64,000 nucleotides of DNA from a virus (IMGVR_UViG_3300033141_002573:42726-106725), one strand, 5' to 3'. Counted from the first letter of the stretch, positions 22,283 to 47,023 are shown. A program made the numbers and translations. The notes: a model not told the origin generated them from the letters alone.

Positions 22283-22999
22283 CTACCAACCTCCCATTTC
22301 GTGTTCTATCCTCAGAGCGGCCATCTTACAGTATTGCTCATCCCTCTCAATCCCGATACACCTCCTCCCCATGCGGTAGCAAGCCACCAATGTGGTTCCA
22401 CTCCCCAGGAATGGATCCAGAACCATATTCCCAGGGTCTGACCACGCTCTAAGCACGGTGGATGGTAGCCACACAGGGAAGGCAGCAGGGTGATCCTTCC
22501 CTGCTGTATCACCCTCACTACTATCCCATACCCCCCTTCTGGTGAGTTTCCTGTCCCTAAACACCTCCTTGGAGTTGGGTGGTTTCCTGAACGTCCAAAT
22601 ATACTCCCACTCAGCCGCAGGCACAGAGAGGTTAATACCAGATGGACCTAGAGTGATGGTAGAGAACTTCTTCTTCCATATCCGCCTACTGTGCATTACC
22701 CACCCCGTCATCCTGAATGCGCGATTGTACAACTCGGCCATTGTCCTCCAATACTTTGAGGTCTCCCCGAAGTTCACCACGAAGAAGGCCCCAGGGCGGA
22801 ACTTGGGTATGCTTACTGCCCCAACCATACTAATCAGCAACAGTAACCCATTCCATTCCAACCCACTTTCGTACTCCTTCCCCAGGGCGTAGGGAGGTGA
22901 CGTAACCCCCAGATCAAACTCAACGTCCAACTGGGGTATTACCTCGAGGCAGTCACCACAGTAGATGCTCAAGCCCTGCTTCTCCCAGTAGGGTTCCAT
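22283..22999 (-). CDS. DNA methyltransferase, beta class, probably N4-cytosine
   Basis: Motif IV SPPY before motif I DPFLGSGTT; HPAAFP. Start trimmed to ATG 22999 (MEPYW) by similarity to paralogs. Confidence 0.9.
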   Translation of the reverse strand: MEPYWEKQGLSIYCGDCLEVIPQLDVEFDLGVTSPPYALGKEYESGLEWNGLLLLISMVGAVSIPKFRPGAFFVVNFGETSKYWRTMAELYNRAFRMTGWVMHSRRIWKKKFSTITLGPSGINLSVPAAEWEYIWTFRKPPNSKEVFRDRKLTRRGVWDSSEGDTAGKDHPAAFPVWLPSTVLRAWSDPGNMVLDPFLGSGTTLVACYRMGRRCIGIERDEQYCKMAALRIEHEMGGW

Positions 23000-23274
23000 G
23001 GTAAGGAGTATAGCAAGTGGCACGTTCAATGTCAACCTATCCCATGCGCTGCCAGGAGCATCCGTAGAGGAAGCGGAGGCAAATGTGGGGGAAAACGCCT
23101 GGGGGAGTGGGGCAGATGTGGGGGTAGAACGGGAGAAAGACGGGAGCGCCTGTGGAATACAGAAGGTAACGAAATGGTGAGAGGCCTGTGTCGAGATAGG
23201 GAGGGTATGTGACAAAATGGTGAAAGCCCCGTGTCCGCGCACGCGGGATAGGGTGGGGAGGGGTCTATTACCGG

Positions 23275-23354
23275 GTCGAACGAATGTTCGACTAATCATA
23301 TACATATTACGCCCTAGTTGCCCGAACGTCCGCTATACGGAAGCTATAGCGGAC
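23275..23354. other. Two hairpins in the divergent intergenic region
   Basis: GTCGAAC/GTTCGAC (23275-23292) and GTCCGCTATA/TATAGCGGAC (23328-23354). Confidence 0.5.
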
Positions 23355-23467: not shown

Positions 23468-23496
23468 AGGACAAAAGCCTCGCTTTGTGGTATACT
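23468..23496 (+). promoter_or_regulatory. Extended -10 sigma70-type promoter upstream of sigma-like gene
   Basis: TGg-TATACT at 23488-23496 with AGGACA 17 bp upstream. Confidence 0.5.
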
Positions 23497-23710
23497 GCTA
23501 CCGTAGAAGCAAGCAAGCACACACCTCAAGCGCAAGCTGCAAGCGCAGGGAAGGGAGGACAGAGGGCAAGCGACACTTTCCTATTCCGAACCCTCGCAGG
23601 TAGAATCGACGGAAGGGAGGGAAGGTGGACAGTCAAGGCAGTCAAGCAGGTAGACAGAAGGTCCTTCGCTCAAGTAAGCAAGCAAGCAACGGAAGGAAGG
23701 TCAAAGGTCA

Positions 23711-24604
23711 ATGTCCTCAATCACCACAATCGAGCGGTCAACAATAAGGCGAATCGTAGTGTCCTCAATCTATACGGTCAACGGAGGTGAAGCACCTCAA
23801 GACATTATCGAGGAGGTAGAAGGGGACATTTTGGCAGACTTGGCAGAAGCGGATATTACCCTTGACCGGGCACAATTAATAAGGGTATACGCCAAGGTCA
23901 ACGACAGAGAGAGGGTCGAGCAGTACATAAGGGACACTCGACGCGGAATGGTTCGGAAACAGATTTCTGACGCAACCAGGAACCTGCTTCGCTATCGAGC
24001 TATCGAAAGGGCGAGGTTCTGTATAGTCACCGTTGCGGTTCCTGTAGACCTCAAGCAACGAATAACGGTAAACAGCTTGCTGCAAATGGTAAGAAGTGGC
24101 CGGGCTTTCGTAGACCCGGCTTCATACAGCGACACAACAACAAGGCTCGAGGAATTGGCAAGCCTTTCCGCTATACCGGGGGTCTCAATCAAGATAGAAA
24201 AGGGGAAGGAGGTTAATCCCCTCCTTAGTGCGGTCAAGAAGCTAGCATTGCGTTCCGCGAAGTGGCACCTCAAGTTCCGACAGGCAGAACCCCTCTGGTC
24301 ACTAGAGGAGGAACACAAGGACAAGATTCCCCTCTGCCGAATCGAAGAGGAGGCAGAGGAGAGAATCGGAAACAAGGACTTCACGGCAAAGGTGGAGGAG
24401 GTGCTCAATAGGTTCGCGGAGAAGGAGGGGAAGGGAGAAGGGTACAAGGGAAAGCTTGCCAAGACACTTTGGCTTCGGATGGACGGGCTTACCGAAGGCG
24501 AGGTAGCGAACAGACTCAAGGTGACAGAGAGAAGCGTGAGGACTTATGTCAAGGACCTCAAGAAGGCATTTGGGGAGGAAGTGGGACTCAACGCGGTAGG
24601 ATAG
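23711..24604 (+). CDS. Sigma-70-family (ECF-like) factor or related HTH regulator
   Basis: C-terminal region-4 HTH (LWLRMDGLTEGEVANRLKVTERSVRTYVKDLKK); LLSAVKKLALRSAKWHLKFR...SLEE resembles region 2.4; a motif copy lies in its own leader. Confidence 0.65.
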   Translation: MSSITTIERSTIRRIVVSSIYTVNGGEAPQDIIEEVEGDILADLAEADITLDRAQLIRVYAKVNDRERVEQYIRDTRRGMVRKQISDATRNLLRYRAIERARFCIVTVAVPVDLKQRITVNSLLQMVRSGRAFVDPASYSDTTTRLEELASLSAIPGVSIKIEKGKEVNPLLSAVKKLALRSAKWHLKFRQAEPLWSLEEEHKDKIPLCRIEEEAEERIGNKDFTAKVEEVLNRFAEKEGKGEGYKGKLAKTLWLRMDGLTEGEVANRLKVTERSVRTYVKDLKKAFGEEVGLNAVG

Positions 24605-24611
24605 AGCAAGC

Positions 24612-24660
24612 GTAAAGAAACAAACCCCTTGCAGGTTCAACCTGCAAGGGGTTTTCTTTT
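24612..24660. terminator. Bidirectional intrinsic terminator
   Basis: Perfect 14-bp stem AAACCCCTTGCAGG/CCTGCAAGGGGTTT with TCTTTT on the right and AAAGAAAC on the left (U-rich on the minus strand). Confidence 0.85.
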
Positions 24661-24661
24661 C

Positions 24662-24870
24662 GACTTGGGTTGGGGGTAGGGGTTGGGGTTGGGGGTAGGG
24701 GTAGGGGTAGGGGTAGGGGTAGGGGTAGGGGTAGGGGTAGGGGTTGGGGTAGGGGTTGGGGTAGGGGTTGGGGTAGGGGTAGGGGTTGGGGTAGGGGTAG
24801 GGGTAGGGGTAGGGGTAGGGGTTGGGGTTGGGGTTGGGGGTAGGGGTAGGGGTAGGGGTAGGGGTAGGGG
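24662..24870 (+). repeat. Telomere-like (GGGGTA/GGGGTT)n hexamer array, G-quadruplex prone
   Basis: About 33 G4-5 runs separated by TA or TT over ~205 bp (count approximate). Confidence 0.95.
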
Positions 24871-24924
24871 ACCTTCCCCTTCCCCTTGGACTTGGGTTGG
24901 GGAACCCCTTCCCCTCCAACCCTT

Positions 24925-25069
24925 TTACCTGCGACAAGGAGAAATAGGAAAGTCCTTCCCCTTCCCCTTGGACTTGGGTTGGGGTAGGGGGTTGGGGACC
25001 TTCCCCTTCCCCTTGGCCCTTGGCCCTTGGCCTTCAACCCTTTTACCTGCGACAAGGAGAAATAGGAAA
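24925..25069 (-). promoter_or_regulatory. Two leftward copies of the 27-bp motif pointing into the G-array
   Basis: TTTCCTATTTCTCCTTGTCGCAGGTAA on the minus strand at 24925-24951 and 25043-25069; each followed after 6 nt by TGGAGG or TGAAGG, as for the plus-strand copies. Confidence 0.8.
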
Positions 25070-25192
25070 GTCTATAATCAATTAATAGCACCTCGAAAAG
25101 TTCTCCAACACTTTCCTATTTCTCCTTGTCGCAAGTAGTATCAACGGAAGGGAAAAGACTGCAAGCAGTCAAACAGAAGGGAGAAACAGAAC

Positions 25193-25519
25193 ATGTCAAG
25201 GTCAATCTGTAAGCTGTATGCCGAAGTAGAACCTGAGTACAAGGAGGAGGTGCTGCAAATCGCCTCAATCGCGGAAAATGCAATAGCAGGAATTGACGAG
25301 TGCTTGCTAAACGAAGGAGAAAGAGTCACCGTCTACGGTTCCGACCAAGGGCCTTCGGTGATTACAGAACTAGGGGAAGAGGTTGGAACCAATGATAGCG
25401 AACTTGCTACATGGTATTCTGACCTCCTTGAAGAGGAGGTGAACCTGCTGCTACCGAAAGGGTTTGTAGCATACTACGAAGACAATTCCCTTTGGGTAGA
25501 GCACCTTGAGGAGGGGTAG
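25193..25519 (+). CDS. Acidic hypothetical protein, paralog family A
   Basis: C-terminal LLPKGFVAYYEDNSLWV motif shared with 26720 and 29460. Confidence 0.7.
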   Translation: MSRSICKLYAEVEPEYKEEVLQIASIAENAIAGIDECLLNEGERVTVYGSDQGPSVITELGEEVGTNDSELATWYSDLLEEEVNLLLPKGFVAYYEDNSLWVEHLEEG

Positions 25520-25552
25520 TTTCCTATTCTTCCTTATCGCAGGTAGTAAAGG

Positions 25553-27090
25553 TGACCGGGTGAAGGGTTCCGAACAAGGAACCCTTCGCCGGGTGTATCC
25601 TATACGGAAGGGAGAAGAGGGAAATGTGGAAAAGGAAACCTACAGCAAGGGGAATAACAGAGGGTCGAATCATGTGGTGGGGAAAAGAGAAGGTGGAGGT
25701 CGTTCGCTGTTATGGTGCAACGACCTGTGTAAAGTGCGTAAAACTGATATACGTTCCTACCAAGGACCTCGACTTTCCTGTCGTTGAACCTCGCAAGTAG
25801 TATATATGAAGGGAGAGAAAACTCATGGAAATAATAGACAAGAGGACAGGTCTTTCAATGAAAGACCTGCATATTCTCCTCTATCAGGTTCACAGGTTGT
25901 CGGAGGCACTACATGAAGCCTGCAAAGAACTTGCCCAATTGAAGTCTATCCGAGAAAACCCGGAGGGCCTAGATACTGACGGGCTTCGGGTGAAGACAAC
26001 TATGGTTGAAAGGGCGGTTCTCCAAAGGGTGGACAGAAACAGGGTTCGGCGGTCTATCCCTTGGGAGGGCGAATACTGAAACGGTGTGGAGGTTGTGCTT
26101 CTCAAATCACACGTATGATGACCGGGTGAAGGGTTCCGAACAAGGAACCCTTCGCCGGGTGTATCATAACACAAGGAGGTCAGCACTTTCCTATTCCACC
26201 ACGTCGCAGGTAGTAAAGGTGAAGGGAGAACAAAAAGGAGGGAAAAGAAATGAAAGCAGTGCTGTGGTACGCAAGCAGATGGGGTTACGAAATACGTGTC
26301 GTGGACATGGACACGGGAGAGGAGCTTGACCACTATCAAGCAGGCAACCACAAGCTTGATTCTGGACAACAAGCAGCGCGAGGAAGTCGGTGGGCCATGT
26401 CCTTAAGAGACATAGTGAAGGATGCGCGGGAAACCGCGCAGGACATGGCAGACGAGTGGGGGGTCCCACACGAAAATATCCTCCTTGACGAGGAATGCGA
26501 GGAGGACACTACAGAGGTCGACGGGTTCGTAGAAAGCCTCCGCAATGAATGGTGCCTCGATGATGCGGGCATTGAGGCTACCCTTGATGAAATGGGATTA
26601 GTTGCACTCTATAGGTGCAATAATCCCCTTCATCGAGGCTTGTTTGCGCGAAACAGGAATGACCCGTCAAAGCTGACCTGCGGGTGTTCTGTGGAGAGTG
26701 GGGAACTTGTAGCATATGAGTGAAGGGAGAGGTTATGATGAGCGAAATAGCAGACTACGTTGAGCGGCTGGCGAGGGAAATCGCCAGTGACCAGAAGGTT
26801 CCTCCGTGGGGAGAGGTGGGTGTGTGGGGAAGAGAGGAGGAAAATCCGGCCCTTGTTATTCTGGAGGAGGCTGAAGCGCCTCCGACCACTACGGAACTGG
26901 AAGGGGAGGCATATGCAGCATTGCTTCTCTCTAAGCTGAATGCGTTCCTCCCTCCAGCGCTTTGTGCATACTGGAGAAATGGACTCTTGATGGTGAAGGA
27001 CATTAGCTAACTACTCCCTCCCTCCCTTCCACCGGTCATGATGACCGGGTAAAGGGCCTTTTCCCGAGGCCCTTTGCCGGGTGTATCATG
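25553..27090 (+). repeat. Hairpin element family, copies 1-3 (25553-25599, 26119-26165, 27037-27090)
   Basis: GACCGGGT-[12-13 bp stem, 6-7 nt loop]-GCCGGGTGTATC; copies 1 and 2 identical over 47 bp, copy 3 has a different but complementary stem. Confidence 0.85.
26720..27010 (+). CDS. Acidic hypothetical protein, paralog family A
   Basis: FLPPALCAYWRNGLLMV C-terminal motif. Confidence 0.65.
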   Translation: MKGEVMMSEIADYVERLAREIASDQKVPPWGEVGVWGREEENPALVILEEAEAPPTTTELEGEAYAALLLSKLNAFLPPALCAYWRNGLLMVKDIS

Positions 27091-27894
27091 AAGTGAACCA
27101 GTTTCCTATTTTCTACCCTCGCAGGTAGAGCAGATGAAGGGAGGTGACATATGAGCATACCCAATATTTCTGAAGCGGCGCAGGATTACCGTGATAGCCT
27201 CCGCAAGGAGGGGCGGCTCTATGCTTCATTCGGCCCGGTGCCGGAGGAAGCGGTTCCGACTCTGCTGGAGATGCTAGAAGACCCGCTCCAGTGGGCATTT
27301 GTTCAAGGCGTCTACCTAGAAAGCGATAGCTTGCCCGATGAGTTGGAGGCCGCCTGCAAACGTGCCTTCGGACCCCTACCATACTGATTGGGAGGTGCTA
27401 TCATGAAGTGCGAGGTGTGCCGTAAGCGACCCGCAACAGCAGTCATGAGGTACACATACACCGTACCTGATGACTGTCCCGACCTGCTGGTATGCGATGA
27501 ATGTGCAACGTTCATTCAAGAACGAGAGGGGGACTGCATGGCAAGGTTCGACCTTGCAGACAACAATAAGTAAAGGGAGGTTGAACGTAGTTTCCTGTCA
27601 GGTCACGTCGCAGGTAGAGTATACGGAGGGAGGTGTTCATAATGAGAACCTTACTTCGCGACGTGGAGGGTCCCACAAAAATTGCCGTTGTTGAGGTCGA
27701 CAACTGGTATCATGTCGAACTCAACTGGGAGAATGAAGGCACTCACGTCAGTCAATGCCGCCTTGCCCGAACCGCAGGAGGTGCCTTGGACCTGGCCGCG
27801 CACCTTGCAGCAGTGAGGCTGGGCAAGGGAAGGTGGGCCGTAGCAGCCTTCATCACACCGTAGCAAGTAGAGAGAAACTGAAGGGAGGCCACAA

Positions 27895-28158
27895 ATGGCA
27901 CTGACACCAAATGAAATGATGGGGGTACTCGACGGGGCAAGGATAGTAAAGCATGACCCCGACCACGACGTGTTGTTTATCTGGCACGGAGGGCACGGGG
28001 TCAGTGGCTTTATCTGCGATGAGAACGGTGAGTGGGTGGAGGCAGTTTACTACAACACAGGAGACTTTGGGCAAAGGGATGCGTCGGAGGAGGACGTTAT
28101 CAGTAGCATTGAAGAACGTATATCCCATCTTGATGACCCCGAGTTTTGGGAAATGTAG
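27895..28158 (+). CDS. Hypothetical protein, paralog family B
   Basis: LDGARIVKHDPDHDVLFIWHGG matches 31325 LDGAMMVVYDEWHGTIWVWYGG. Confidence 0.7.
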   Translation: MALTPNEMMGVLDGARIVKHDPDHDVLFIWHGGHGVSGFICDENGEWVEAVYYNTGDFGQRDASEEDVISSIEERISHLDDPEFWEM

Positions 28159-29085
28159 AGTTTCCTATTCCGGGGCTTCGCAAGTAGTATAGGTGAAGGG
28201 AACCGTAAGGAGGGAGAAACAATGAAAAGGCGCACGGACCTGAAGCCCCAGGACATCCTGAAAACCAGAATCAAAAAGGGCAGAATGTTCCTGGGGCCAC
28301 CTTACGCAGGATGCTTCGGGGGAATGATGCCGTGTATTCTGCACAGCCGTCGAAGCGGGCTTTACCTTGTGGGGTTGGAAATGTTTGTGACAGAACTAGC
28401 GCCACGGCTATGGTACTGGGAGGGTAAACGAATCTACTTCATGGACGAAACGGCGCGTAAGCGCCGTGACCGTCGCAGGGCAGTATGGGTGTTCAAGACC
28501 GCGAAACCAGCAAAGAAAAGGTTCCTTGCAATGTGTGAGGAAGTGGAGGAGTACAACCGCCGCGCCCGTGAAAAAGCACGGGAGGCGATGAAGAAACTTG
28601 AATCTGACGACCCGTCCGTCCGCATTGAGGGCGCATTGGCGCTCAACGACCTCTGAGGGAGGGAGTACCATGAGTTATGACGAACCCGAATATGAGCGGG
28701 TGTGGAGGGCGGGGGACATTCAGGTATCAAGGCATGTTCACGGAACAGGAACCTGGAACAGCCCTCCGCCTTACGTCGCCTGGTACGGCACGTATGCAAC
28801 AGGGGCACAAACAGCAAAGGAAGCCTTGTGCTGGTTAGCAAGCATGGCTGCATTGGTGTGCTACAGGCTGACTGACAACGGGAAAGGAGGCGCAACGTGT
28901 TAAAGCATACGTACTACAGCAGGCGTCGTCCGTTCTGGTTGGGGGCCGGCAGTAGAATGTTGGAGGACCTTCCGCCTGACGGCAAGATAGAGTACATAGA
29001 GGCGCATTGTCTACCCGATGGCGTACTGGGAGGGGTCCGAACAAGTCATCCCCTAAGTGACGCTCTAGTCACAAGTTGGGACCTT

Positions 29086-29435
29086 GAGGAGGTGTGAATG
29101 ATTTTCCTGTTCAACAGCCTCGCAAGTAGGGAATGTGAAAGGGGACTAGGTAGTATGCCCAAGTTTGCAACCTTTGATGAGGCCAAGGAAACACTCAAAG
29201 CGTGGGACATTGGGGTGGCTATAGCCTTACACACAGGAGGACCACTCCCCAGCGAGGAAGACCGCGCTAAGGCTGCCGCAGCACAAGCCGACATAGCCGA
29301 CGCTTGGGTCGTGAGGGAGAGAGTCCGCATACTGTCACGCTCGCCGTTGCGCTCTGAAAGTGAAAAGGCACTACTTCGCCGAATCCTCGGCGAGGAGGTG
29401 TGAATGATTTTCCTGTTCAACAGCCTCGCAAGTAG
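29086..29435 (+). repeat. Identical 44-bp direct repeats flanking one gene
   Basis: GAGGAGGTGTGAATGATTTTCCTGTTCAACAGCCTCGCAAGTAG at 29086-29129 and 29392-29435. Confidence 0.9.
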
Positions 29436-29459
29436 AGAATATGAAAGGAGGCCTTGACA

Positions 29460-29855
29460 ATGACAGACAATGACGTTGAAAACGCTTTGAAGGAACTGGC
29501 AACCACGGTTGCAGATGGTTGCCGAAGACAGTATGCGTCCCCCTATAATGCAGAGGAGGTCGACCCTGATTATGTGAGGGACAATAACCTAGACCCGAAG
29601 GGTACGGCCTACGCGCTCATTGCCTTCGGGTCTAATTGTGGACCCCCGGCAGACGAAATGATAGCGGAGGAAATAGGACTCTCTCCTGACGAGTACTACG
29701 AGGGAGGTTATCAAGACTGGAACTTCGGAGACGAGTTAGAACGCCTGGTATACGAACGTCTACCTGAGGGAGGTTATGTATTCTGGCACGACAACGAACT
29801 ACACTGGGAACTTTTCGAGGAGGAGAGTGACAACAACACGGAAGCGGTAGAGTAA
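29460..29855 (+). CDS. Acidic hypothetical protein, paralog family A
   Basis: RLPEGGYVFWHDNELHW C-terminal motif. Confidence 0.7.
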   Translation: MTDNDVENALKELATTVADGCRRQYASPYNAEEVDPDYVRDNNLDPKGTAYALIAFGSNCGPPADEMIAEEIGLSPDEYYEGGYQDWNFGDELERLVYERLPEGGYVFWHDNELHWELFEEESDNNTEAVE

Positions 29856-29895
29856 ACTTTCCTATGTCAGGACCTCGCAGCCAGTACAAAAGGAG

Positions 29896-30420
29896 ATGAC
29901 AGGAATGAAACCAGTACCCTTGTCTGAATGGCGGTTGGGGTACTCAACCGCCAGGTCAATTGCGGAGGCCTTGTGGGGGCGCGGGGGAACCAGCAGCGAA
30001 AAATGCAACCGCAAAGGGGCATTCTACTTCCTATGCTCCGGGCACGGTGGGTATGTGATAGACAGCAATGCCCTCACTCAACAAGAACGGAAACAGGTGA
30101 ATGACCTGCTGGCCGATGAATACGTCTACCTTTTCGTACAAGACAGAGAGGGCGTTCCTACAGTCATCGGCGTACGTCATCCGTACAGCACGAGACCCGT
30201 AGGTGTGCGATACCCCGTGAGGTGGGGAGAACCTCGCATTGTCGAACATCCAATAGTGATTGCAGAGGAGGACTGTGATTGGGCAGTAGTGGAACTATTC
30301 ACGGGGGTCAGGTCGGAGTGGGCAACGAAGAAGGATGAAGAGAACATCGCCCTAGCTATACAACGCCGACAGGATACCGTGAATGCGCTCAAACATTACC
30401 GAGAGGAGATAGCACAATGA
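29896..30420 (+). CDS. Hypothetical protein (SGHGG...EEDCDWAVV family, possibly DUF7007-like)
   Basis: Motifs recalled from a widespread phage/plasmid family; unverified. Confidence 0.5.
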   Translation: MTGMKPVPLSEWRLGYSTARSIAEALWGRGGTSSEKCNRKGAFYFLCSGHGGYVIDSNALTQQERKQVNDLLADEYVYLFVQDREGVPTVIGVRHPYSTRPVGVRYPVRWGEPRIVEHPIVIAEEDCDWAVVELFTGVRSEWATKKDEENIALAIQRRQDTVNALKHYREEIAQ

Positions 30421-31324
30421 CCTGGGCAGAGTTTGTTGAATACTGGGCAAAGTACATCGGGAGAGTTTCCGTAGAGGACGAGGGAGCGTTCCGAAGAAAC
30501 GCGACACAGGCGTTGCACAACGCGAAAGAAGGGAAGAAACAGGTGTTGATTCCTGAGTACCCTGGGGGAATCAAGCCGGGGAAGTATGATACCGTTACAC
30601 TCCTGAGGCAGCACAAGGACAACCCGGAGGCGATAGCGTTCATTGCAGACATGTTGGAATGAGTTTCCTGTTTCATCCCATCGCAAGTAGTACAAGTGAA
30701 AGGAGGTGATGCAAATGGGAAACCTCGATGACATGGTTGAGGTTGCCCCTTACTACTCAGTGAGAGTTAGCTGGGCGGAAGTAGCCGCGTACCTAAGGGC
30801 ACACGGGATTCCTGCGGAGGTCAAGGTGTGGAGACCCCGTTCGGCCTCCGGGGGCTTTGCGTACGACCCACGTGTCACGGTTGTGGTGCCTCCGATTGAT
30901 GCTGAAACTGCCAAGAAAGCATACATAGACTACATGCACGACAAGAAGGAGCACAGCCGAGTCATCCTTGATGGACTCTCGTTGGAGGAAATAACAGCAT
31001 GGGAGGTAAAGCACTGGGGCCTGGAATACATGGGGTGGTATGGAGTATTCAGTCACGCCGTAGCAGTAGACAAGGCTCACTATGGGGTCATAGCATACTA
31101 CCTGGGAGGTGAAATATGGGAGCGGTACAGGGCAATGCTTGTGGACCGTAACGGGAGGAGGCGGCCTGAAGGCGCTGCATGGGCATTCAATGATGACCTA
31201 ACTGGGCTCTCACAAACATGGTACTCGCAAAAACCGGGAAGTGACTGGACAGGTCTCCCCAAGAGTCTTGCAAACAGTGCATTTTCCGCTGCGGGCGTCT
31301 CGCAGGTAAGAGAGGAGGGGAAAT

Positions 31325-31537
31325 ATGAATCTGGCTAAGTTGGACGGTGCCATGATGGTGGTGTACGATGAGTGGCACGGAACAATATGGGTGTGGTACG
31401 GAGGCCGAAACATTTACAACCTGAATCAGAAAGGAGAGGTGCTGAAAGGCGTGACGTTGAATGAAGAGGACTCAAGCGACGGAGAAAGTGTCGCCTCGTT
31501 TGTGTACAACATGATAAAGGAGAATGAACAAACATGA
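31325..31537 (+). CDS. Hypothetical protein, paralog family B
   Basis: See 27895; preceded by variant motif at 31283. Confidence 0.65.
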   Translation: MNLAKLDGAMMVVYDEWHGTIWVWYGGRNIYNLNQKGEVLKGVTLNEEDSSDGESVASFVYNMIKENEQT

Positions 31538-32100
31538 CCTGGGTGGAAAAACTGGCACCAGACTACCTGAGGACCTCCCCCAAGATGACGGCGATTCTCG
31601 GAGCATTGACGGGGGAAAGGTGGACAGAACCTCGAATGATTAGGATATACATCACTTCAGACAGATTCGCGCTGGGGGAACATGAGGGTGAGGTGGGCGC
31701 AAACTACTTCATCGGGGCAGCAAGTGACCTGGAGCGCAACATCAATGGGGTGTGCAACGCAGTAGGGCTAACTCCCACCGAACGGGTGGAGTTTGCGCGA
31801 ACAGCAATGAAGCACATTGAGGCGCATGGGAACATAGACATTAACTACGCCTTCGGCATTGACAGCATCGAATAAGGGAGGGAACCCGAATGGGTGACGC
31901 AGCAAGCATAGTGCTCCTAACAGCGGGGGGTGGTTTCCTACTCATCCTCATGATATGTGGCGTGATTGCCGCCATACTGAATGGGTGGTATGGGCATACG
32001 AAGGCAAGGCGTCGAGGACGAGTAGAATGGGGTCGGACGGCACAACTGCTCACCACCAAGACAAAACGGCGTAAGTGAAAGTAGTGAAGGAGGGGTACAT

Positions 32101-33636
32101 ATGTACGTAGAAAGCGAGCAGGAACATCTAAACCGCCTTAGGGAAATCTCCCGTATGGCTATGGAGGATGACAACCTCAAGGTTCTGAGAGGGCGGGTGT
32201 TGATTCCCTCAAGTGGGTACACAATTAATGGGACACACATTCATGAGTGGAGAAAAGCCTTGGAGCGTCGCATGGGAATCACAGGACATATCAAAACTCG
32301 GCTCCAACCTCATGTCAAGGGCGAAATAACGTGGTTGAAAGAGTCTCTGTGCTACAGTAGGGCTAACTACCAGGCACTCAGAATAGGACTCGCTACCACA
32401 CCTAAAGACGGAAAACTCGTGCCGATACCTCTCCACCAACTCGTTAAGGAGGCAGAGGAGTACGAAAGCTTTCAGAATGAAAGTCATGCACGGGAAATAG
32501 CACGCATCTACCGGCGCATAGAAGTACAGAACCATCAGACCAGGGGTCTGCTGTATGCCCACATTCCCTGTAGTGAGGAGCGAAGCACACGCGGCTATGT
32601 ACCCTTCTGGGAGAAGCATGGAACACTTGTCCTTAGTCCTGCTATCCGTGCGGAACCTGTAGGGCCTGGGAAGGCTGAGGTGCAGGTCACAGTACTATCG
32701 GGCGAGACAGTTATCGACACGTTCATTACATCGGCAAGGCCACAGGTTTCAAACCCCACCGCACGTGAAGAGCGCTTCTATTGCTCAGATGGAAGCGTAG
32801 TGTACCTGCGCCCTCCCAACCTGCGCCAGTACCTGGCCTTGATTGATAAAGCAACCTACAACCCGTCATCGAGTAAGTATTACACAGTTGAAACGGGCAA
32901 CATAAGCTCATTGAGGAAAGCCCTAACAGGCACAGGCAAGGTGGCCGCCTCCAAGAATGAGCACCACATTCTTGGAAACGTGCTGATAGAAATCCGTGAA
33001 GACAAACTGTCCATCACTGGTACGGACAACCACACCTTGATAAGGTCACACCAGATTCCGATACAGGGGTACGAAAACGATGAAGAACTTCTGGTTCCAG
33101 GACCATTCGCAGTAGCAGTCGGAGAGAAAACGGTCGATGGGGAACCCATATCCATCGGCGTTGGGCCGGATTCTCTGCGCGTCATACAAGGAGAACTAGA
33201 CATCGCAACCCCGTTAGCCAAAGGGATATACCCCAACATCGAAAAACTAATAGCTTACAGGTGGAGGAAGACAACATCTCTGGGACCTGCTCCTGCGTTG
33301 AGAAATGCCATTAGAAAAACAAAGAATCACGTGGAACCATACGCACTCCGCAAGATACACCTGGTTCCCCAAGAGGGAATATGGGTGCTCACGGTTCACA
33401 AGGGTGGGAGGAACGGAGAAGATTATGTCGTTCCGCTACCCGACAGCAAGGCCAGTGATGATGATGAGATAGTGGCCCTTAGCAGAGACCATCTCATGCA
33501 AGTAGCACAAATGACCCAGGAGCATGTGGTGATGCACTACATGCCCAGTACACTTCCCTTGTCGTTCAATGTCCCAGAGTGGGATACGTGCCTCGTAAGT
33601 CCAATGCTAGTAACCATCGGAGGTGAAGCACAATGA
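32101..33636 (+). CDS. Unknown N-terminal domain fused to beta-sliding-clamp-like domains
   Basis: AASKNEHHILGNVLIEIREDKLSITGTDNHTL and GIYPNIEKLI match the DnaN central domain; ending LVSPMLV resembles the DnaN C-terminus. Confidence 0.7.
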   Translation: MYVESEQEHLNRLREISRMAMEDDNLKVLRGRVLIPSSGYTINGTHIHEWRKALERRMGITGHIKTRLQPHVKGEITWLKESLCYSRANYQALRIGLATTPKDGKLVPIPLHQLVKEAEEYESFQNESHAREIARIYRRIEVQNHQTRGLLYAHIPCSEERSTRGYVPFWEKHGTLVLSPAIRAEPVGPGKAEVQVTVLSGETVIDTFITSARPQVSNPTAREERFYCSDGSVVYLRPPNLRQYLALIDKATYNPSSSKYYTVETGNISSLRKALTGTGKVAASKNEHHILGNVLIEIREDKLSITGTDNHTLIRSHQIPIQGYENDEELLVPGPFAVAVGEKTVDGEPISIGVGPDSLRVIQGELDIATPLAKGIYPNIEKLIAYRWRKTTSLGPAPALRNAIRKTKNHVEPYALRKIHLVPQEGIWVLTVHKGGRNGEDYVVPLPDSKASDDDEIVALSRDHLMQVAQMTQEHVVMHYMPSTLPLSFNVPEWDTCLVSPMLVTIGGEAQ

Positions 33637-35462
33637 CGCCGAAAGTCATATTCTGGTTCAGTCGACGGACGGACCAGACCGGGCCGCGTTCGACATGCGA
33701 CAGCACGGTCCAGGCAATTGTCAAAGCCGTAAGTCGGGCGCTGGAGATTCCAGCAACCATTCACATCGACCAGGGAAACCCAGGCGATTATGTTGACCTC
33801 AGCGTAGAGGTGCCGACCGATGACACGCTCGAACGTTTTCTCGATGCGTTGTCGGCTGGCGGACTTACCAGCATAGACTACGACAGCATTGATAGCGCCG
33901 ATGGTGGCGCTATCAAGGACAAAGACCTGTCGGCACGCCTGGAGTCCTACGGAGTAACCGTGTGGTAGATTCCTATTATGGTTCCTCGCAGGTAGACATG
34001 GTGAAAGGAGATAGGAGCATGGAACTGATAGTTGCCGCAAGAAAGGCGTTGGACACCTATCAAAGGCGGGCGGCAAACGCCAAGGCGCGATGGAACCACG
34101 AGCAGTACCGTATCGCAACGATAATGGCCGACCGCGCTGCCAGGCTTCTGGCTGCGTTAGAAAAGGAGACAGAAAAGTGAACGGGACAGACAAAGCAATA
34201 AACAAGACAATTAGCCTATTCTACAATCTTCAAAAGCAGACCGCTGGAATTGACAACAAGGGGTTGCGGAGGGACTTCCGCGACGACCTTGCTGAACTCA
34301 CCGCTAAGATTAAGAATCTCGGCTACTGGCTTGAGTCCCACGACCCAGTTGTCCGGGCTTTGGCGTCAGACGCACTTCGGGCATTGGGGATAAAGACATA
34401 GAAACGGGTAACCGACCCTAACCTGCTACCGCAGCGGTATCCCGGAGAATAGGAGACGAGAAAATGACAAAGCAAGAATGCGAAGCGGTACGCCAGACAT
34501 TCTGTATCCTAGAGCGTCTACGTGACGTAGCAGGCAACGCAAGCGCAGAGGCGTATGACACCGATGACATGACCACATTCTCAAGGCTGGTTGGTGACGT
34601 TGACATGTACACCGATGCGCTATACGTGCTAGGTCGGCTCCTAGCACGTGAGGGAGCCGCCCGGTGGCGGGACTTCAAATATGAACTTACACCAACAGCC
34701 GAAAGCGGCGGCGGGAGGTGAAATAACGTGAATATAGTGCATGAAGACGATGGGGCAAGGGCGCTTTCCCTTGCCCGAATTGATGAATGGGCAGGCTCCA
34801 GACTTACACCATCTGAACACAGCGAACGGCGCATTCTCCTCTGTCGCCTTGGTGCCGCAGGCAGACTGGTGGCGGGGAAGAAGTGGAGCGTCCGGCGATA
34901 CCCAGGGGCAGGTGAGTACTCCTCGCGCACGATATTCTTGGACACAGAAAAAGATGGGCGCGAGGTGGTGACCTGGGAAGGTTGGACCCGGAACTGGAAG
35001 CAGGACTGGGCGCAAATACAAAAAGGGGAAATCGAAGGAACCTCATTCAGAACCTGAGGAGGTGGAACACGTGCGAAGGGTTACAGTCACAGGGGAAGGA
35101 ACAAGCGTAGAGGTGGTTCTCCTTACGCCAGAGGAGAACCCTTATGGCGATGACTGGAGTTACATTTATGTTCATCCTATGAGTGGAAAACTCACAGACT
35201 TCCCCGGCATGGGGTGGGCTGACCCGAAGGGAGACGACTCTCACAAGCGGCTTATGCGCCTGGTACGGCGCATAAACGCAGCGTGGGACTCGGCCACCAC
35301 ACCGGGGTTCATCGCCCTGCTCGCGGCGCAATGGATAGGGAATCTCGAAGTGGGTGAGTGGGAGCGACGGGCGTAGGCCACATGGTAGACGGTAACCACA
35401 TTCCCTACAACTGCAATGAGCAACATATCCGCCCTGTTCTACAGCGAAAGGAGATGTGAAAC

Positions 35463-35657: not shown

Positions 35658-37029
35658 ATGCCAAGAGCACCAGCAAAAATACGAGCGGAGGTGCAATGAA
35701 ACATGCACGAAATAGATGAGGGCGACATCCTCGTCATAGACAAGGAAGAGGAAGAAGTCTTGAAGGTGTACCAGACGCACAGAAATAACGAGGGAGAGGT
35801 TATCGGCTATCTCGTCGAGCTAACACACGGGGAATGGTATATCTTCGGAACGCAGGAGGCGGCGGGGCAAGCGGCCCGTGACTACTGGAGGGAATTGGCA
35901 GAGAATGACCCTGAGGAGTTCCGTTGCATTGTCGGCGACGAGAGCCTTGTTAAGTGGGCACTCGGCCAGTACGCCGGTCCCGGTAGCACAAAGGTTAACA
36001 GTTTGGAGGCGTGGCTCGACCTGTGGCTGGATACGCCAGAGGAGTGCTGGGCATCGTACGACCGCTTCGAGTGGGAGGCTGTCCATACCAACGTAGAAGA
36101 CAGCATTAAGCAGAACGTGGTAGCATACCGCTGGAACTAGCCCCAGAGAGGAGATCCTATAATGTTATGTCGCAAGTATACAGGAAGGGGAGGCCCTATT
36201 CACTACGGAGGATGGCGCATTGTGGGCAGTCTCGATCCTCTCACAACCCGGCGGGGAATGCCAACTGAGCACCTGTATCGATGCCCCGATACAGGTCATT
36301 GGGCACACTGGCATGACGGGGGCGCTGTACGCGCACATTGCACGCCTGTGGCGTACAGGCACGGGGATACATGGCACGACGCAGACACAGGCGAGGCCCT
36401 CAGCAGGGAAGACGCCGTGGGCTACAGGAACAAGGAGAGTGATGAGACCATCAGCCTTAATGAGGCGCTTGTCGAGGCCCACAGACTGAAGTAAAGTTCT
36501 AAACAGTCGGACCAGCTCCACAACCGAACAAGCAGGAGGCAACAACATGAAAGTTACTGGGTTGCGGAAATGGGGGCGGCGAGGGTGGGAATGGACCATC
36601 CGCTGGGCCGAACCGTGGGCTAACGGTATGGAACGGAGCTACCGCACTAACGACCACGGCGATGGCCTTTGGGTGTGGAACACACAGCGAGGCGAGTGGC
36701 GACAGACCATTGGCACGTGTCAGTTTGCCCTACCGGGCAACCGCGAGACTGCCCGAAGGACCATTCGTAGATACTTCCTTAGGCCGTCTAATCCGCAATA
36801 GATAGTCGGAAGGAGGGTGTGCAGCAATGAAGTACCAAGTGGCGCATACAGTGGATGGATTGGGTGGGCGCTATCCGGGCGGCGGAATCGTGGATACAGA
36901 GGTAGATAGCCTAGCCAAGGCCCGCCGGTTGGCCGCCAGGCTAACGGCGGTGGGGCAATGCGGCTACATAGTACGTGTGGCCGATGGCGCAATCGAAATG
37001 CCCGATGGCTCGTGGTTCGTTCCGAAGCA

Positions 37030-38029
37030 ATAGGTAGCCGGGTCCTGCCCTCGCATTGACGAGGGTGGGGGCCGGGCGTATCCTATGACGGGAGGTGAAA
37101 GCCGTGAGCAACCTCACAGTGGTGCGCAGTCTGGCAAACTGGCGCAGGCGTATAATCGGCTGCGCCAGGGAGCACAACCCTCAAGCCGTAGAGGACGCCC
37201 TGGGGATTGTCAGCGCCTTCAGCGGTGGTGGCAACACGGTTGCCTGTCTAAATGACCTCGGAATAGAGGCCGACCGCCGGGGGCTGTCGGACGCCGCCTG
37301 GCGCGTGATTAGCCAGGCCGCCAAGTGACGCCAACCAAGGCCCTCTGCGAGGGCAGGACCAGCCGTACCCTAAGTAAAGGTGAGCGTATTCTACAGGGAG
37401 GACAAGACGGATGACACAATGGAATCCCGAGGATGCAATGGCAGTACTCTCCGAGACGATTGAGATACTCTCGGAGGCAGGGGTCCCGATCAACCCCCTG
37501 ACAGTCCGCGCCTATCTCTCTGAGCGCGAGGGAGGCGAGCAGACATGAGTTTGACACGCGACGAAACGAGGGCCTTAGACATCGCACGTAGGTTGCTCGA
37601 AGCACGAGCCGACCGCCTCATGGAGCAGTGCGATAATGCCGACCCCGCTGCCGACATCAGCAGGCTGCTTGAGGAGGCCGACGAATACCAGGCGGCTGCT
37701 GATACCATCACCGACCTCCGCCTGCTCAACAAGCGGCACTAATCAGGCATAGGTGGCCGGGTCCTGCTCTCGGCCCCCGAGGGTAGGGCCGGGTGTATCC
37801 TAAGACAGGGAGGTGCAAGGCAATGAGTTATGACGAGCAACTGGCAGCCTGGCAACGGGAGAATCACTGTGACACCTGTCGCTTCGGGGACCTAGAGTCC
37901 TTTGAACGCGGTGAACCCTGTTGCCTGAAGATGCGCCGCGAGTTCGACGCGCAGGGAATGTGCCTGTCGCATGAGGACAGTCCAGACAAGAGGGGATAGG
38001 TCGCCGGGTCCGGGGCCGGCCTTATCCTA
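37030..38029 (+). repeat. Hairpin element family, copies 4-6 (37030-37086, 37750-37802, truncated 37997-38029)
   Basis: TAGGT-N-GCCGGGTCC-[stem-loop]-GGGCCGGGYGTATCCTA, each between a stop codon and the next RBS; a degenerate copy lies near 37340-37374. Confidence 0.8.
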
Positions 38030-39072
38030 AGACGAACATGGAGAAAGGAGGATAGTTCAATGGCAGGAGTTGAAAGGCTCACCGACTGGATGGAGAGATA
38101 TGATAACTCCACGTCCTTGGAGGCACTACACAGTCAAGGAGACTTGACGCGGGAGGTCAAGGGTATTGTTGCCGAACTAGCATACCACGGCGACCGTCTC
38201 CCCCCATACGTGTGGATCTGTCGCGACCGACGCACCCGCCAAGAGGATGAAGACGCCAAGGAGGCCTTGGAATACCTGGCTGAGGTTTTCAGGCATGTTG
38301 CCAACTGGGCAACTGCACGGGCTGATGAGGCGGCATCGGCTGCACAGTCGCAACCCATCGGCAACGATCCGCCCATTATCGTATAAAAGGAGATGAGAGA
38401 GATGCAGACAGAACAACTACTCGCAGAAGCCCAGGCCGCAGTCGAAGCGGAAAGGAGGGCAGTGGGACAACTCTGTCGTGCTCAACGTGCGCTGGAGCTA
38501 ACACCCCGATTCGACAGAGGGTCGGGTCGTGAGCGTATCCGCAAGCGAATCGAGGCAGAGCAGGCACTCGCAGCGGCTGAGAGGGATGTGGAGTCTGCCG
38601 AGAAACGAGCGGACCAACTGCTTCAAGAACTCGAGGCATTAATCAGTCCAGTAGGGAGATGAGGTGAAAGAAGTGATAGTCAAGTCAATGCCTGTTAGGT
38701 TGCGGAACGACTATAGCGACGCCTTCGCAGACTATTTGAAAGAAGGCTTCACATTGCAACAGGCCACGCGCAGAATGGGGCTACGACTTCTGCGCCAGAA
38801 AAAACTAGAGACGTACAGAATAGCATTTCTCCAAGTGGGAAATGTCAGATACGGCATGACTTTGTGGGAAGACGCTTGGGAGGAGGGGTATCCAGTAGCA
38901 GACAAGTTAACTGAAAATGACAAGTTGCGTCTGCTAGTAAGTTGAAACATAGAAAAGTGTACTGTAGAAAGGAGGCCAAAGCACAACAACATCCCTAACC
39001 TACCGCCTGATTAAGGAGGAAAAAGAAACGTCAAGCGAAAACGGAATACACACCGAACCGAACCTCCAACCC

Positions 39073-46189: not shown

Positions 46190-47023
46190 ATGGATTTGCT
46201 CAACGCATTCGTTATATCCGCAAAGGGAAGAGGCTTATCTGAGACAACTGTAGAGCTTTACTCTACAGTTGTTCAACAGATGACAGAGGTAGTGGGGAGT
46301 CTTCCTCCATCTCTTGAGGATATTGAGAGGTACATATCCGAGCAAATGAAGGTCAACAGCCCCACAACGGTCAACACAAAACTCCAAGTGGTAAAGTCCT
46401 TCTGTGGGTGGGCTAAGCGTGCGGGCATAACAGAGTGTGCAGACCCTGCCGATTTACCAACCGTGATACATGGTAGCCCGAAGCCCAAGATAGTACCGTC
46501 ATCCGAAGAAATCGCAATTCTCGAAAGCCACCTCAGACCGAAACACAAGGCCAGCCTTCGCCTGATGTCCGACGCAGGACTCCGTGTTGGTGAGGTTGTC
46601 GGACTCCACCCTCACAACGTACACATCGAGTCGCGAGTGATCATGGTGAAAGGGAAGGGAAAGAAAGAACGGGTGGCACCTATCACAACAGACGAACTGA
46701 TAGATGCCATTGAACCGTTTGTCAAGGAGAACAATGAGTGGCTGATACCGGGAAGGGGAGGCCAACAAATGACAGTAGGTGCAATCCAGAAGGCAATAAC
46801 GAGGGCCTGCACGCGGGCTGGGATCAGACACCTAACCCCTCACTCGTTCAGGCACGCATTCGCTGCGCGTGCCGTAGAAACAGGAGTACACACCAAGGCC
46901 GTTCAGGAAGCATTGGGACACAGTAGTCTTTCAACCACAGAGGTGTATCTCTCATCACTCGAAAGACCGAGCAGAATTGCCAATGCCTTCCGATCATTCC
47001 ACCGAGACGAAAAAGGGGGTTAG
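46190..47023 (+). CDS. Tyrosine recombinase (XerC/D-like)
   Basis: Catalytic R (GLRVGE), K (KGKGKKER), HxxRH (PHSFRH), LGH and Y (TTEVY). Confidence 0.92.
   Translation: MDLLNAFVISAKGRGLSETTVELYSTVVQQMTEVVGSLPPSLEDIERYISEQMKVNSPTTVNTKLQVVKSFCGWAKRAGITECADPADLPTVIHGSPKPKIVPSSEEIAILESHLRPKHKASLRLMSDAGLRVGEVVGLHPHNVHIESRVIMVKGKGKKERVAPITTDELIDAIEPFVKENNEWLIPGRGGQQMTVGAIQKAITRACTRAGIRHLTPHSFRHAFAARAVETGVHTKAVQEALGHSSLSTTEVYLSSLERPSRIANAFRSFHRDEKGG

What the first reader, a model, noticed from the sequence alone, without database searches (positions are those of the whole stretch)
23577..33995. Self-amplifying phage sigma-like factor with a 16-site promoter regulon
Seen: 14 plus-strand and 2 minus-strand copies of TTTCCTRT-N9-TCGCARGTAG. 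The spacer length is fixed but its sequence is free, and a near-invariant 6-nt gap leads to TGAA(A/G)GG or CGGA(A/G)GG, so transcripts would begin almost at the RBS. The first copy lies in the leader of a gene with a sigma region-4 HTH, downstream of a host-type extended -10. Established: ECF sigmas often autoregulate and recognise bipartite fixed-spacing promoters. Inference: host sigma70 makes the phage sigma, which amplifies itself and switches on the small-gene array using a promoter consensus I do not recognise. Alternatives are stoperator or start-associated-sequence-type operator sites, as in mycobacteriophages.
Basis: partly seen in the sequence, partly recalled or inferred. Interest (0 to 1): 0.85.

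Follow-up and report, generated by a model that had tools for sequence, protein, structure and literature searches.

The report
Phage-private promoter-like motif array
An uncultured 108-kb phage carries 16 copies of a highly conserved two-part DNA word in front of its small early genes, most likely a private promoter class switched on by the orphan DNA-binding protein encoded just upstream. That protein is only half sigma-like, and none of this has been tested experimentally.

Summary
TTTCCTRT-N9-TCGCARGTAG occurs 14 times on the plus strand (11 exact) and twice on the minus strand, all within window 23577-33995. Shuffles expect 0, and there is no other copy in the complete 108.5-kb phage genome. 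No multi-copy contig turned up in IMG/VR or JGI metagenomes.

Every plus copy starts just after a stop codon and points at the next gene. GTAG-N6-YGRARGG holds in 11 of 13 copies. The N6 is 70% A+T against 44% for the N9.

The geometry fits a sigma70-family promoter: TTTCCT, 17-18 bp, then (G)TAG plus an A/T-rich stretch, with +1 predicted at the ribosome-binding site. The phage's host-type promoters (TTGACW-17-TGnTAnnnT) are a separate class. None lies in the array, and a strong terminator seals the array off from the one upstream.

The gene between that promoter and the terminator (297 aa) is an orphan with one distant homologue. Its C-terminal ~80 residues resemble sigma region 4. Its N-terminal ~170 residues give no sigma-2 signal and model as alpha/beta. 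"Sigma-like" is therefore only half supported.

Best reading (about 0.45): a phage-specific promoter class driven by this protein, acting as an unorthodox sigma or an activator. Main rivals are L5-type stoperators and a host alternative sigma. No RNA data were available.

The parts
23468..23496 (+). Host-type promoter AGGACA-17-TGgTATACT (extended -10) upstream of the HTH gene
   Evidence: It is the same type as about 10 other intergenic TTGACW-17-TGnTAnnnT sites in the genome.
23577..23603 (+). Motif copy 1 (exact), in the leader of the HTH gene, followed by CGGAAGGG at +6
23711..24604 (+). Orphan 297-aa protein (P0001): N-terminal alpha/beta domain of unknown fold, C-terminal sigma-4/LuxR-type HTH (about 217-296)
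24622..24654 (.). Strong bidirectional intrinsic terminator (15-bp stem, T-runs on both strands) that closes the HTH gene unit
   Evidence: (-35.6 kcal/mol, z -6.2)
24925..24951 (-). Leftward motif copy (ends GTAA). No ORF follows. It points into the (GGGGTA)n array.
25043..25069 (-). Leftward motif copy (ends GTAA), back to back with copy 25112. It overlaps the weak sigma70-like site GCGACA-18-TATAAT (25049-25078).
25112..25138 (+). Motif copy (exact), head of the small-gene array, before gene 25193-25519
25520..25546 (+). Motif copy (exact), followed by a conserved hairpin and then gene 25624-25800
25774..25800 (+). Motif copy (exact), 24 nt before ATG 25825
26187..26213 (+). Motif copy (exact), preceded by hairpin 26119-26165, before gene 26250-26723
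27102..27128 (+). Motif copy (exact), preceded by a hairpin at about 27045-27090, 22 nt before ATG 27151
27591..27617 (+). Motif copy (exact), 24 nt before ATG 27642
27844..27870 (+). Degenerate relic: only TAGCAAGTAG plus TGAAGGGAGG are kept, 24 nt before ATG 27895
28161..28187 (+). Motif copy (exact), before gene 28222-28656
29103..29129 (+). Motif copy (exact), 25 nt before ATG 29155. It is part of a 44-bp perfect repeat shared with copy 29409.
29409..29435 (+). Motif copy (exact), 24 nt before ATG 29460
29858..29884 (+). Motif copy with 2 mismatches (GCCAG for GGTAG), 20 nt before ATG 29905
30664..30690 (+). Motif copy (exact), 18-24 nt before the start of gene 30709/30715-31338
31283..31309 (+). 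Weak copy (3 mismatches) inside the 3' end of the previous gene, 15 nt before ATG 31325
33969..33995 (+). Motif copy (1 mismatch, ATTCCT), last of the series, 23 nt before ATG 34019
36153..36179 (+). Doubtful relic (3 mismatches: GATCCTAT...TCGCAAGTAT)

Best explanation
The 27-nt word, together with the conserved purine block 6 nt after it, is a phage-private promoter class. It drives the first ~10 kb of the rightward arm, an array of about 25-30 small ORFan genes, nearly one promoter per gene or gene pair.

Proposed cascade: host RNA polymerase with its normal sigma fires the extended -10 promoter at 23468-23496. It makes only the 297-aa HTH protein, because a strong terminator (24622-24654) stops it there. 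That protein then directs RNA polymerase to the motif. Its sigma-4-like C-terminal domain reads the -35-like block ANTTTCCTRT. The second block, TCGCARGTAG plus the A/T-rich 6 nt, is read either by its novel N-terminal domain (unorthodox sigma substitute) or by the host sigma/core remodelled by it (MotA/AsiA-like appropriation). Transcripts would start about 7-10 nt after GTAG, at the Shine-Dalgarno block. Copy 1 in its own leader would give positive feedback.

Shown: the motif, its statistics, position, orientation and geometry; the separate host-type promoter class; the terminator; and the HTH.

Inferred: that the sites are promoters, that the factor is this protein, and that it activates.
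For: 1. 15-16 sites against 0 expected. All lie within 10.4 kb of a 108.5-kb genome.
2. All plus-strand copies begin right after the previous stop codon and point at the next gene. The modal distance from GTAG to the start codon is 22-25 nt.
3. Geometry: TTTCCT, then 17-18 bp, then (G)TAG. The unconserved 6 nt after GTAG are 70.5% A+T against 44% in the N9 spacer (Fisher p = 4e-4), as expected of a melting region. The third block is kept at +6 even in the 4 long-leader copies that retain it and use a second, closer SD.
4. Host-type promoters in this genome form a different, coherent class (TTGACW-17-TGnTAnnnT, about 10 intergenic sites). None lies on the plus strand inside the array, and the array is cut off from the upstream one by a -35.6 kcal/mol terminator. 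The array therefore needs promoters of its own.
5. No phage RNA polymerase gene was detected by the three Pfam models tried: single-subunit RNA_pol, Rpb2_6 and Rpb1_2 (the control for one search was uninformative).
6. The only protein gene called in the host-promoter-to-terminator unit encodes a DNA-binding protein. A possible 40-codon upstream ORF at 23625-23747 was not assessed. The protein's C-terminal domain best matches sigma region 4 domains (VIA Z 8.3-7.5 for SigD4, SigH, SigF, CnrH, BldN and others; Foldseek prob 0.96 to sigmaE region 4).
7. The one related phage found (terminase 63% identical) lacks both the protein and the motif and has other intergenic cassettes. This fits a co-evolving factor/site pair.
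8. Precedent: phage 7-11 gp47 recognises the bipartite GTAAtg-16-aCTA, with starts 6-9 bp downstream (PMC8948821).
Against: - There is no transcript evidence of any kind.
- No sigma region 2 was found. N-terminal residues 1-230 give no family hit even at E<=10, and they model as alpha/beta.
- All HTH family hits are below the curated thresholds, and the structural Z of about 8 is in the range the tool calls borderline.
- The T at the -7-equivalent position, needed by sigma70-type -10 reading, is present in only 5 of 13 copies.
- Near-invariance of 18-20 positions is more typical of a site-specific DNA binder or a T7-type polymerase than of sigma promoters.
- A weak sigma70-like site (GCGACA-18-TATAAT, 25049-25078) at the head of the array could serve an operator model.
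- The factor-site link rests on adjacency and on a single comparison genome.
Confidence: 0.45

Rival explanations
1. Operator/stoperator model. The HTH protein is a repressor that binds the asymmetric sites as a two-domain monomer. It blocks initiation at a host-type promoter at the head of the array (25049-25078) and blocks elongation at each intergenic site, as the L5/TipsytheTRex immunity repressors do. Copy 1 gives negative autoregulation.
For: - The sites are asymmetric, sit in short intergenic gaps, and are oriented with transcription. These are the hallmarks of stoperators (PMC9283540).
- Three near-identical copies cluster around a TATAAT-containing site at the head of the array.
- The protein has two domains and only one recognisable HTH.
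- A tyrosine recombinase (46190-47023) leaves lysogeny possible.
- Near-invariant sites suit a sequence-specific binder.
Against: - The sites are 27 nt and bipartite, not 13-mers.
- They are confined to 10 kb instead of spread over both arms.
- The fixed 6-nt link to the purine/SD block and the A/T-rich segment after GTAG have no role in a roadblock.
- The candidate promoter at 25049-25078 has a poor -35, an 18-bp spacer and no TG, unlike the phage's other host-type promoters.
- The leftward copies would block nothing known.
Confidence: 0.2
2. The sites are promoters read by host RNA polymerase alone, through a host alternative sigma or an unusual host holoenzyme, with no phage factor. The HTH protein has another job.
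For: - Early genes of many phages (T4, SPO1, T5) have many strong, very similar host-read promoters.
- The array lies at the start of the rightward arm, where immediate-early genes are expected.
- The promoter-like geometry fits this reading equally well.
Against: - The consensus matches no sigma class I could recall, although I ran no systematic comparison.
- It is unlike the host-type promoters used elsewhere in the same genome.
- The information content (more than 34 bits) far exceeds that of ordinary sigma promoters.
- No multi-copy occurrence was found in IMG/VR or JGI metagenome contigs.
- The related phage does not use it.
Confidence: 0.17
3. RNA-level element. The conserved blocks act in the mRNA, for example as a binding site for a translational regulator or RNase. 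Alternatively, UUUCCU pairs with the SD block to mask it, like the start-associated sequences of cluster K mycobacteriophages.
For: - There is a fixed distance to the SD block.
- RNAalifold pairs block 1 with the SD block in most copies.
Against: - That helix is 6 bp with G-U pairs across a 31-nt loop. Its consensus energy is -1.4 kcal/mol and it shows no covariation.
- A fixed-length, free-sequence 9-nt spacer is typical of DNA recognition.
- Two copies have no gene downstream.
Confidence: 0.06

Closest known systems
Phage-encoded sigma factors with private promoters: Salmonella phage 7-11 gp47 (GTAAtg-16-aCTA), phiEco32 gp36 (tAATGTAtA), Bacillus SPO1 gp28 (PMC8948821; SPO1 from my own knowledge and the abstract of PMC13401047)
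   Same: A host-sigma promoter makes a phage specificity factor, which then redirects host core polymerase to a set of promoters with a private consensus. In 7-11 the consensus is bipartite, region 4 is present, and starts lie 6-9 bp after the downstream element.
   Different: Those factors have a recognisable sigma-2 domain, and this protein does not. Their promoters serve middle or late genes and are fewer and more degenerate. Here there are 16 near-invariant sites in front of small ORFan genes, plus a conserved block at the predicted start.
T4 MotA/AsiA sigma appropriation at middle promoters (PMC2988021)
   Same: A phage DNA-binding activator reads a box that replaces the -35 element at a fixed distance from a -10 element. 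It controls a class of pre-replicative genes.
   Different: MotA promoters keep a good sigma70 -10 (TAnnnT); here only TAG is kept. MotA has a different fold order (helical N-domain, double-wing C-domain). No AsiA-like partner was identified.
T7 early-to-class II layout (my own knowledge)
   Same: Host promoter, then the gene for the transcription specificity protein, then a terminator, then many high-information private promoters with a conserved purine-rich start region.
   Different: No phage RNA polymerase gene was detected. The motif is bipartite with a free 9-nt spacer.
Stoperators of cluster A mycobacteriophages (L5 gp71, TipsytheTRex repressor; PMC9283540)
   Same: Many asymmetric sites sit in short intergenic gaps, oriented with transcription, and are bound by a monomer with two DNA-binding domains.
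   Different: Those are 13-mers spread across the whole genome, bound by an N-terminal HTH repressor of a temperate phage. Here the sites are 27 nt, bipartite, local, and tied to the SD at a fixed distance.
PeSL (promoter-early stem-loop) cassettes of T4-type phages (PMC2839356, PMC4122927)
   Same: Small unrelated ORFan genes in a plastic region are each flanked by a conserved promoter, often next to a stem-loop. The repeats serve as recombination points. Here a 44-bp perfect repeat brackets gene 29155-29403, and hairpins precede copies 26187 and 27102.
   Different: PeSL promoters are ordinary host sigma70 early promoters. This consensus is not host-type.

Membership tests
Sigma70-family sigma factor (including ECF) | Sigma-2 domain (regions 2.1-2.4: core binding and -10 recognition), all-helical | tested here: not met
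   - No Sigma70_r2 match in the genome at E<=1, while controls rang in 11 of 14 genomes.
- Residues 1-230 give no Pfam or NCBIfam hit at E<=10.
- The AF2 model shows beta-alpha units in residues 16-170 (pLDDT about 60-80, only 2 sequences, so not final).
Sigma70-family sigma factor (including ECF) | Sigma-4 domain (regions 4.1-4.2 HTH) at the C-terminus | tested here: inconclusive
   - Sequence hits are all below threshold: Sigma70_r4_2 17.2-17.7 bits (cut-off 25.7), TIGR02937 18.2 bits (cut-off 42.9), HTH_Mga 21.8 bits, GerE 15.3 bits.
- By structure, the top 11 VIA matches are sigma region 4 domains at Z 8.3-7.5, and LuxR-type regulators follow at Z 7.0.
- The tool rates Z under 8 as possibly a common arrangement.
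Sigma70-family sigma factor (including ECF) | Binds RNA polymerase core (beta flap, beta' clamp helices) | not testable with these tools
   The one complex job (C-terminal domain against the Thermus beta flap) gave no answer. The host is unknown.
Sigma-type bipartite promoter | Two conserved blocks about 17 bp apart, co-oriented with and upstream of genes, with an A/T-rich melting segment | tested here: met
Sigma-type bipartite promoter | Primary transcript 5' ends 5-10 nt downstream of the -10-like block | not testable with these tools
   No sequencing run was listed for the stretch.
L5-type stoperators | Asymmetric sites in short intergenic gaps, oriented with transcription | tested here: met
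L5-type stoperators | Single short (about 13-bp) site, more than 20 copies spread across the genome on both arms | tested here: not met
   The site is 27 nt and bipartite. All copies lie within 10.4 kb of 108.5 kb.
PeSL cassettes of T4-type phages | Conserved promoter plus stem-loop between small ORFan genes, with repeats acting as recombination joints | tested here: met
   - Hairpins of -35 to -39 kcal/mol lie next to copies 25520, 26187 and 27102.
- A 44-bp perfect repeat lies at 29086-29129 and 29392-29435.
- The ORFs have no Pfam or PHROG hits.
PeSL cassettes of T4-type phages | The promoter is a host sigma70 early promoter | tested here: not met
   The consensus differs from the genome's TTGACW-17-TGnTAnnnT class.
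Sigma54 promoters | GG at -24 and GC at -12, 10 nt apart | tested here: not met
   No GG lies 10-11 nt upstream of the GC of TCGCA (alignment).

The most novel reading that the evidence does not exclude
The 297-aa protein is a new kind of RNA polymerase specificity subunit. A sigma-4-like domain reads the -35-like block. It is fused to a non-sigma alpha/beta domain that reads TCGCARGTAG and helps open the A/T-rich segment, replacing sigma-2. A single small protein would then create a 27-bp, very high-information promoter that is orthogonal to host promoters.
Probability: 0.12. Interest if true: 0.85.

Novelty: new variant of a known kind. Interest (0 to 1): 0.52.

Why it matters
If the reading holds, this is a compact two-part switch: one 297-aa protein and one 27-bp site of more than 34 bits. 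It reprogrammes host RNA polymerase with a consensus unlike any described class that I recognise, and the factor lacks the domain that every sigma70 relative uses to read the -10 element.

That would widen the known ways phages capture host transcription. It could also give an orthogonal expression part.

It also shows a PeSL-like gene-shuffling array built on a private promoter rather than a host promoter. That ties the expression of newly acquired genes to one phage regulator.

If the stoperator reading is right instead, it extends that otherwise actinophage-restricted silencing mechanism to an unrelated phage lineage.

Tried and rejected
- Near-DNA search in GenBank phages found no match.
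- Terminase tblastn found only a 27% partial hit to a Weizmannia phage.
- No prophage relatives were found in 185k genomes.
- Word-indexed searches and an exhaustive HMMER search for homologues of the 297-aa protein found only itself and one 341-aa protein on a 1.8-kb Logan contig whose DNA could not be fetched.
- The PDB sequence search gave only weak DevR/LuxR HTH hits.
- Single-sequence AF2 was useless (pLDDT 37.6).
- Foldseek against PDB and AFDB and the Atlas shape search gave no significant whole-protein match and no fold for the N-terminal domain. ESM feature neighbours were generic HTH/sigma-4/GerE clusters below the sharing level that would be diagnostic.
- Complex prediction of the C-terminal domain with the Thermus beta flap gave no answer, which is neither support nor evidence against.
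- The motif scan of IMG/VR gave 2 single hits on unrelated contigs with no tblastx similarity. The scan of JGI metagenomes gave 43 single hits. I judge both to be chance-level, because no contig had more than one copy.
- No sequencing runs were listed.
- An RNA pairing model for the motif had negligible energy and no covariation.
- Sigma54, sigmaB/F-type and ECF consensus comparisons, made by eye, did not fit.
- A tyrosine-recombinase core-site or integron attC reading was rejected. The two blocks are not inverted repeats (only 4 of 8 positions are symmetric).
- An archaeal TATA/BRE reading was rejected because of the bacterial-type promoters, intrinsic terminators and DnaB/DnaN-type replication genes.

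Full report
**Setting**

The window is bases 42726-106725 of a complete 108,503-bp IMG/VR virus record. It has 114-bp terminal repeats and 52.6% G+C.

Terminase, portal, tape-measure and other structural genes lie on the minus strand of window 1-23305. Small ORFs and replication genes (two clamp-like proteins, helicases, DnaB, exonuclease, several DNA methylases and a tyrosine recombinase) run rightward from about 23500, continuing around the record ends.

No cultured phage is close. There is no megablast hit, and the terminase gives only 27% identity over a quarter of its length to a Weizmannia phage. The host is unknown. The strong Shine-Dalgarno words, intrinsic terminators and TG-extended -10 promoters indicate a bacterium.

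**The observation**

- TTTCCTRT-N9-TCGCARGTAG gives 15 sites at up to 2 mismatches, against 0.00 expected in shuffles.
- The rest of the genome has none. The exact second block occurs only inside motif copies.
- The alignment shows an invariant A two bases before TTTCCT, a 9-nt spacer of fixed length and mostly free sequence, the invariant TCGCA-R-GTAG, six unconserved bases, and then YGRARGG in 11 of 13 copies.
- Each plus copy starts immediately after the stop codon of the previous gene. The next start codon is 20-25 nt after GTAG in nine of the thirteen good copies and in the relic at 27844. It is 34-107 nt after GTAG in the four long-leader copies, and 15 nt after it in the weak copy at 31283.
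- In the long-leader cases, apart from copy 25520, the purine block still sits at +6 although a second SD nearer the ATG is used. So the block belongs to the motif and not only to translation.

**Promoter-like properties**

Counting from TTTCCT, a hexamer starting at (G)TAG lies 17-18 bp downstream. That places a start 7-10 nt later, at the purine block.

The six unconserved bases after GTAG are 70.5% A+T, against 44% in the equally unconserved N9 spacer and 47% in the window (Fisher p = 4e-4). This is what a melting segment should look like and has no obvious role in a simple binding site.

The genome has its own clear set of host-type promoters. About ten intergenic sites read TTGAC(A/T)-17-TGnTAnnnT, including a near-perfect leftward one at 23035-23007 and the rightward AGGACA-17-TGgTATACT at 23468-23496. 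No such promoter lies on the plus strand between 24650 and 34000.

A 15-bp-stem terminator at 24622-24654 (-35.6 kcal/mol, z -6.2) separates the array from the promoter at 23468. The array therefore needs its own promoters, and the motif is the only conserved candidate.

K-mer enrichment upstream of genes elsewhere in the genome finds only SD words. No phage RNA polymerase of the single-subunit or multisubunit type was detected.

**The candidate factor**

The only gene called between the host-type promoter and the terminator is 23711-24604 (297 aa).

- It is an orphan. A word-indexed search of 5.8 billion proteins found only itself. An exhaustive HMMER search of 1.84 billion representatives added one 341-aa protein (E = 5e-6, 26% identity over the full length) on a 1.8-kb contig without retrievable DNA.
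- Residues about 250-290 match HTH families below threshold: HTH_Mga 21.8 bits, Sigma70_r4_2 17.2, GerE 15.3, TIGR02937 18.2, and DevR in PDB at E 0.3.
- An AF2 model from the two-sequence alignment reached pLDDT 63.
- Residues 217-296 of that model align best with sigma region 4 domains (Z 8.3-7.5, 56-67 residues). LuxR-type response regulators rank just below. Foldseek gives probability 0.96 to sigmaE region 4.
- Residues 16-170 model as alternating strands and helices, not as the helical sigma-2 domain. They have no family hit at E<=10 and no clear fold match.
- Sigma70_r2 is not found anywhere in the genome.
- The protein is therefore a sigma-4/LuxR-type HTH joined to a novel N-terminal domain. 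"Sigma-like" is met for one of the two defining domains and not met for the other.
- A second small sigma-4-like protein (91 aa) lies outside the window.

**Comparative evidence**

The motif is private. IMG/VR gave two single hits on unrelated contigs, and JGI metagenomes gave 43 single hits with none multi-copy.

The one relative found (L013, terminase 63% identical) is collinear through the packaging genes. It loses all similarity at the divergent control region and has no homologue of the 297-aa protein and no motif.

Its small-gene array carries other intergenic cassettes (long hairpins, and GCGTGCAGAC before the SD). A 31-bp tandem repeat containing the same GCGTGCAG word sits at the head of its array. 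Factor and site thus appear and disappear together, but this rests on one comparison.

**Mechanism and rivals**

My best reading (about 0.45) is a transcription cascade like T7 early-to-class II or SPO1 early-to-middle. Host holoenzyme makes the HTH protein. The protein redirects RNA polymerase to the motif promoters. Copy 1 gives positive feedback.

Whether it replaces sigma or works with it cannot be decided here. The missing sigma-2 and the poor conservation of the -7-equivalent T (5 of 13 copies) argue against ordinary sigma70-type -10 reading in either case.

The strongest rival (about 0.2) is an L5-type operator/stoperator system (PMC9283540).
- In its favour: the sites are asymmetric, oriented, intergenic and nearly invariant; three near-identical copies surround a TATAAT-containing site at the head of the array; and the protein has two domains.
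- Against it: the length and bipartite form of the site, its restriction to 10 kb, the fixed link to the start block, the A/T-rich segment, and the poor quality of the only host-type promoter candidate.

A host alternative sigma acting alone gets about 0.17. An RNA-level role gets about 0.06. The only consensus pairing, UUUCCU with the SD block, is worth -1.4 kcal/mol and shows no covariation.

**Cassette aspect**

Conserved hairpins (-33 to -39 kcal/mol, with compensatory changes between copies, no U-tract, followed by GTATCMTA) lie beside three motif copies. They recur without the motif at 37040-38030.

A 44-bp perfect repeat that includes the motif brackets gene 29155-29403. Three copies share one spacer (24925, 25043, 25112).

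This is the organisation described for PeSLs in T4-type phages (PMC2839356, PMC4122927). The difference is that the promoter here is not a host-type one.

**Limits**

There is no RNA evidence, the host is unknown, the structure model rests on two sequences, and there is one comparison genome. The complex prediction returned no answer.

**Verdict**

It is a new variant of a known kind, namely a phage-private promoter class with a phage-encoded specificity factor. Interest is 0.52.

Noticed in passing
window 24673-24870: About 33 tandem GGGGTA/GGGGTT hexamers (TRF score 315) lie in a gene-free gap. The bidirectional terminator is on the left and two leftward motif copies are on the right. If the motif is a promoter, a C-rich (CCCCUA)n RNA with no ORF would be made. 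More G/C-rich short repeats (CCTTCC, CCCTTGG) follow to 25032.
   Followed up: partly
window 25553-25599, 26119-26165, about 27045-27090, 37040-37075, 37760-37795, 38003-38025: This is a family of strong hairpins (-33 to -39 kcal/mol) with CCGGG feet and compensatory stem changes between copies. They have no U-tract and are always followed by GTATC(C/A)TA. The tail TATCCTAT resembles motif block 1. They could be a processing site, a factor-dependent terminator or a second promoter type.
   Followed up: partly
window 29086-29129 and 29392-29435: A perfect 44-bp direct repeat (the last codons of the upstream gene plus the whole motif) brackets the single gene 29155-29403. It looks like a recent cassette insertion or duplication by recombination between motif copies.
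   Followed up: partly
window 23503-23700: The leader of the HTH gene is full of CAAGC/GCAAGC repeats (23507-23547 and 23671-23695). It holds a second GCAGGTAGA 50 nt after the motif, a repeat of ACGGAAGG just before the ATG, and a possible 40-codon upstream ORF (GTG 23625-23747) that overlaps the gene start.
   Followed up: no
window 23328-23354: A perfect 10-bp inverted repeat (GTCCGCTATA / TATAGCGGAC, 7-nt gap) lies in the divergent control region between the leftward and rightward host-type promoters. It is a candidate operator for some other regulator.
   Followed up: no
window 23035-23007 (minus strand): A near-consensus promoter TTGACA-17-TGnTATACT lies inside the long 340-aa reading frame of the DNA methylase (22283-23305). 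The methylase domain starts near residue 100, so the real start is probably downstream of this promoter.
   Followed up: no
L014:15118-15393 (genome, outside the window): A second small (91-aa) sigma-4-like HTH protein (PHROG 1190 'sigma factor' E 4e-4; Sigma70_r4_2 17 bits) lies directly after a 175-aa DNA-polymerase-like fragment gene. It is a possible late-gene activator of the RinA/ArpU kind.
   Followed up: partly
L013:5330-5540 and L013:1-5000 (minus strand): The related phage has five or six 31-bp tandem repeats at the head of its own small-gene array. It also has two families of intergenic cassettes: about 20-bp-stem hairpins followed by CCCCACATAGGAG..., and CCGCCTGCAGGC-hairpin-GCGTGCAGAC before the SD.
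   Followed up: partly
window 22283-23305, 53949-55670, 59765-60556 and L014:1268-2611: There are at least four N6/N4 DNA methyltransferase genes in one phage genome. Two of them (573 aa and 447 aa) have a large insert between the methylase motifs.
   Followed up: no
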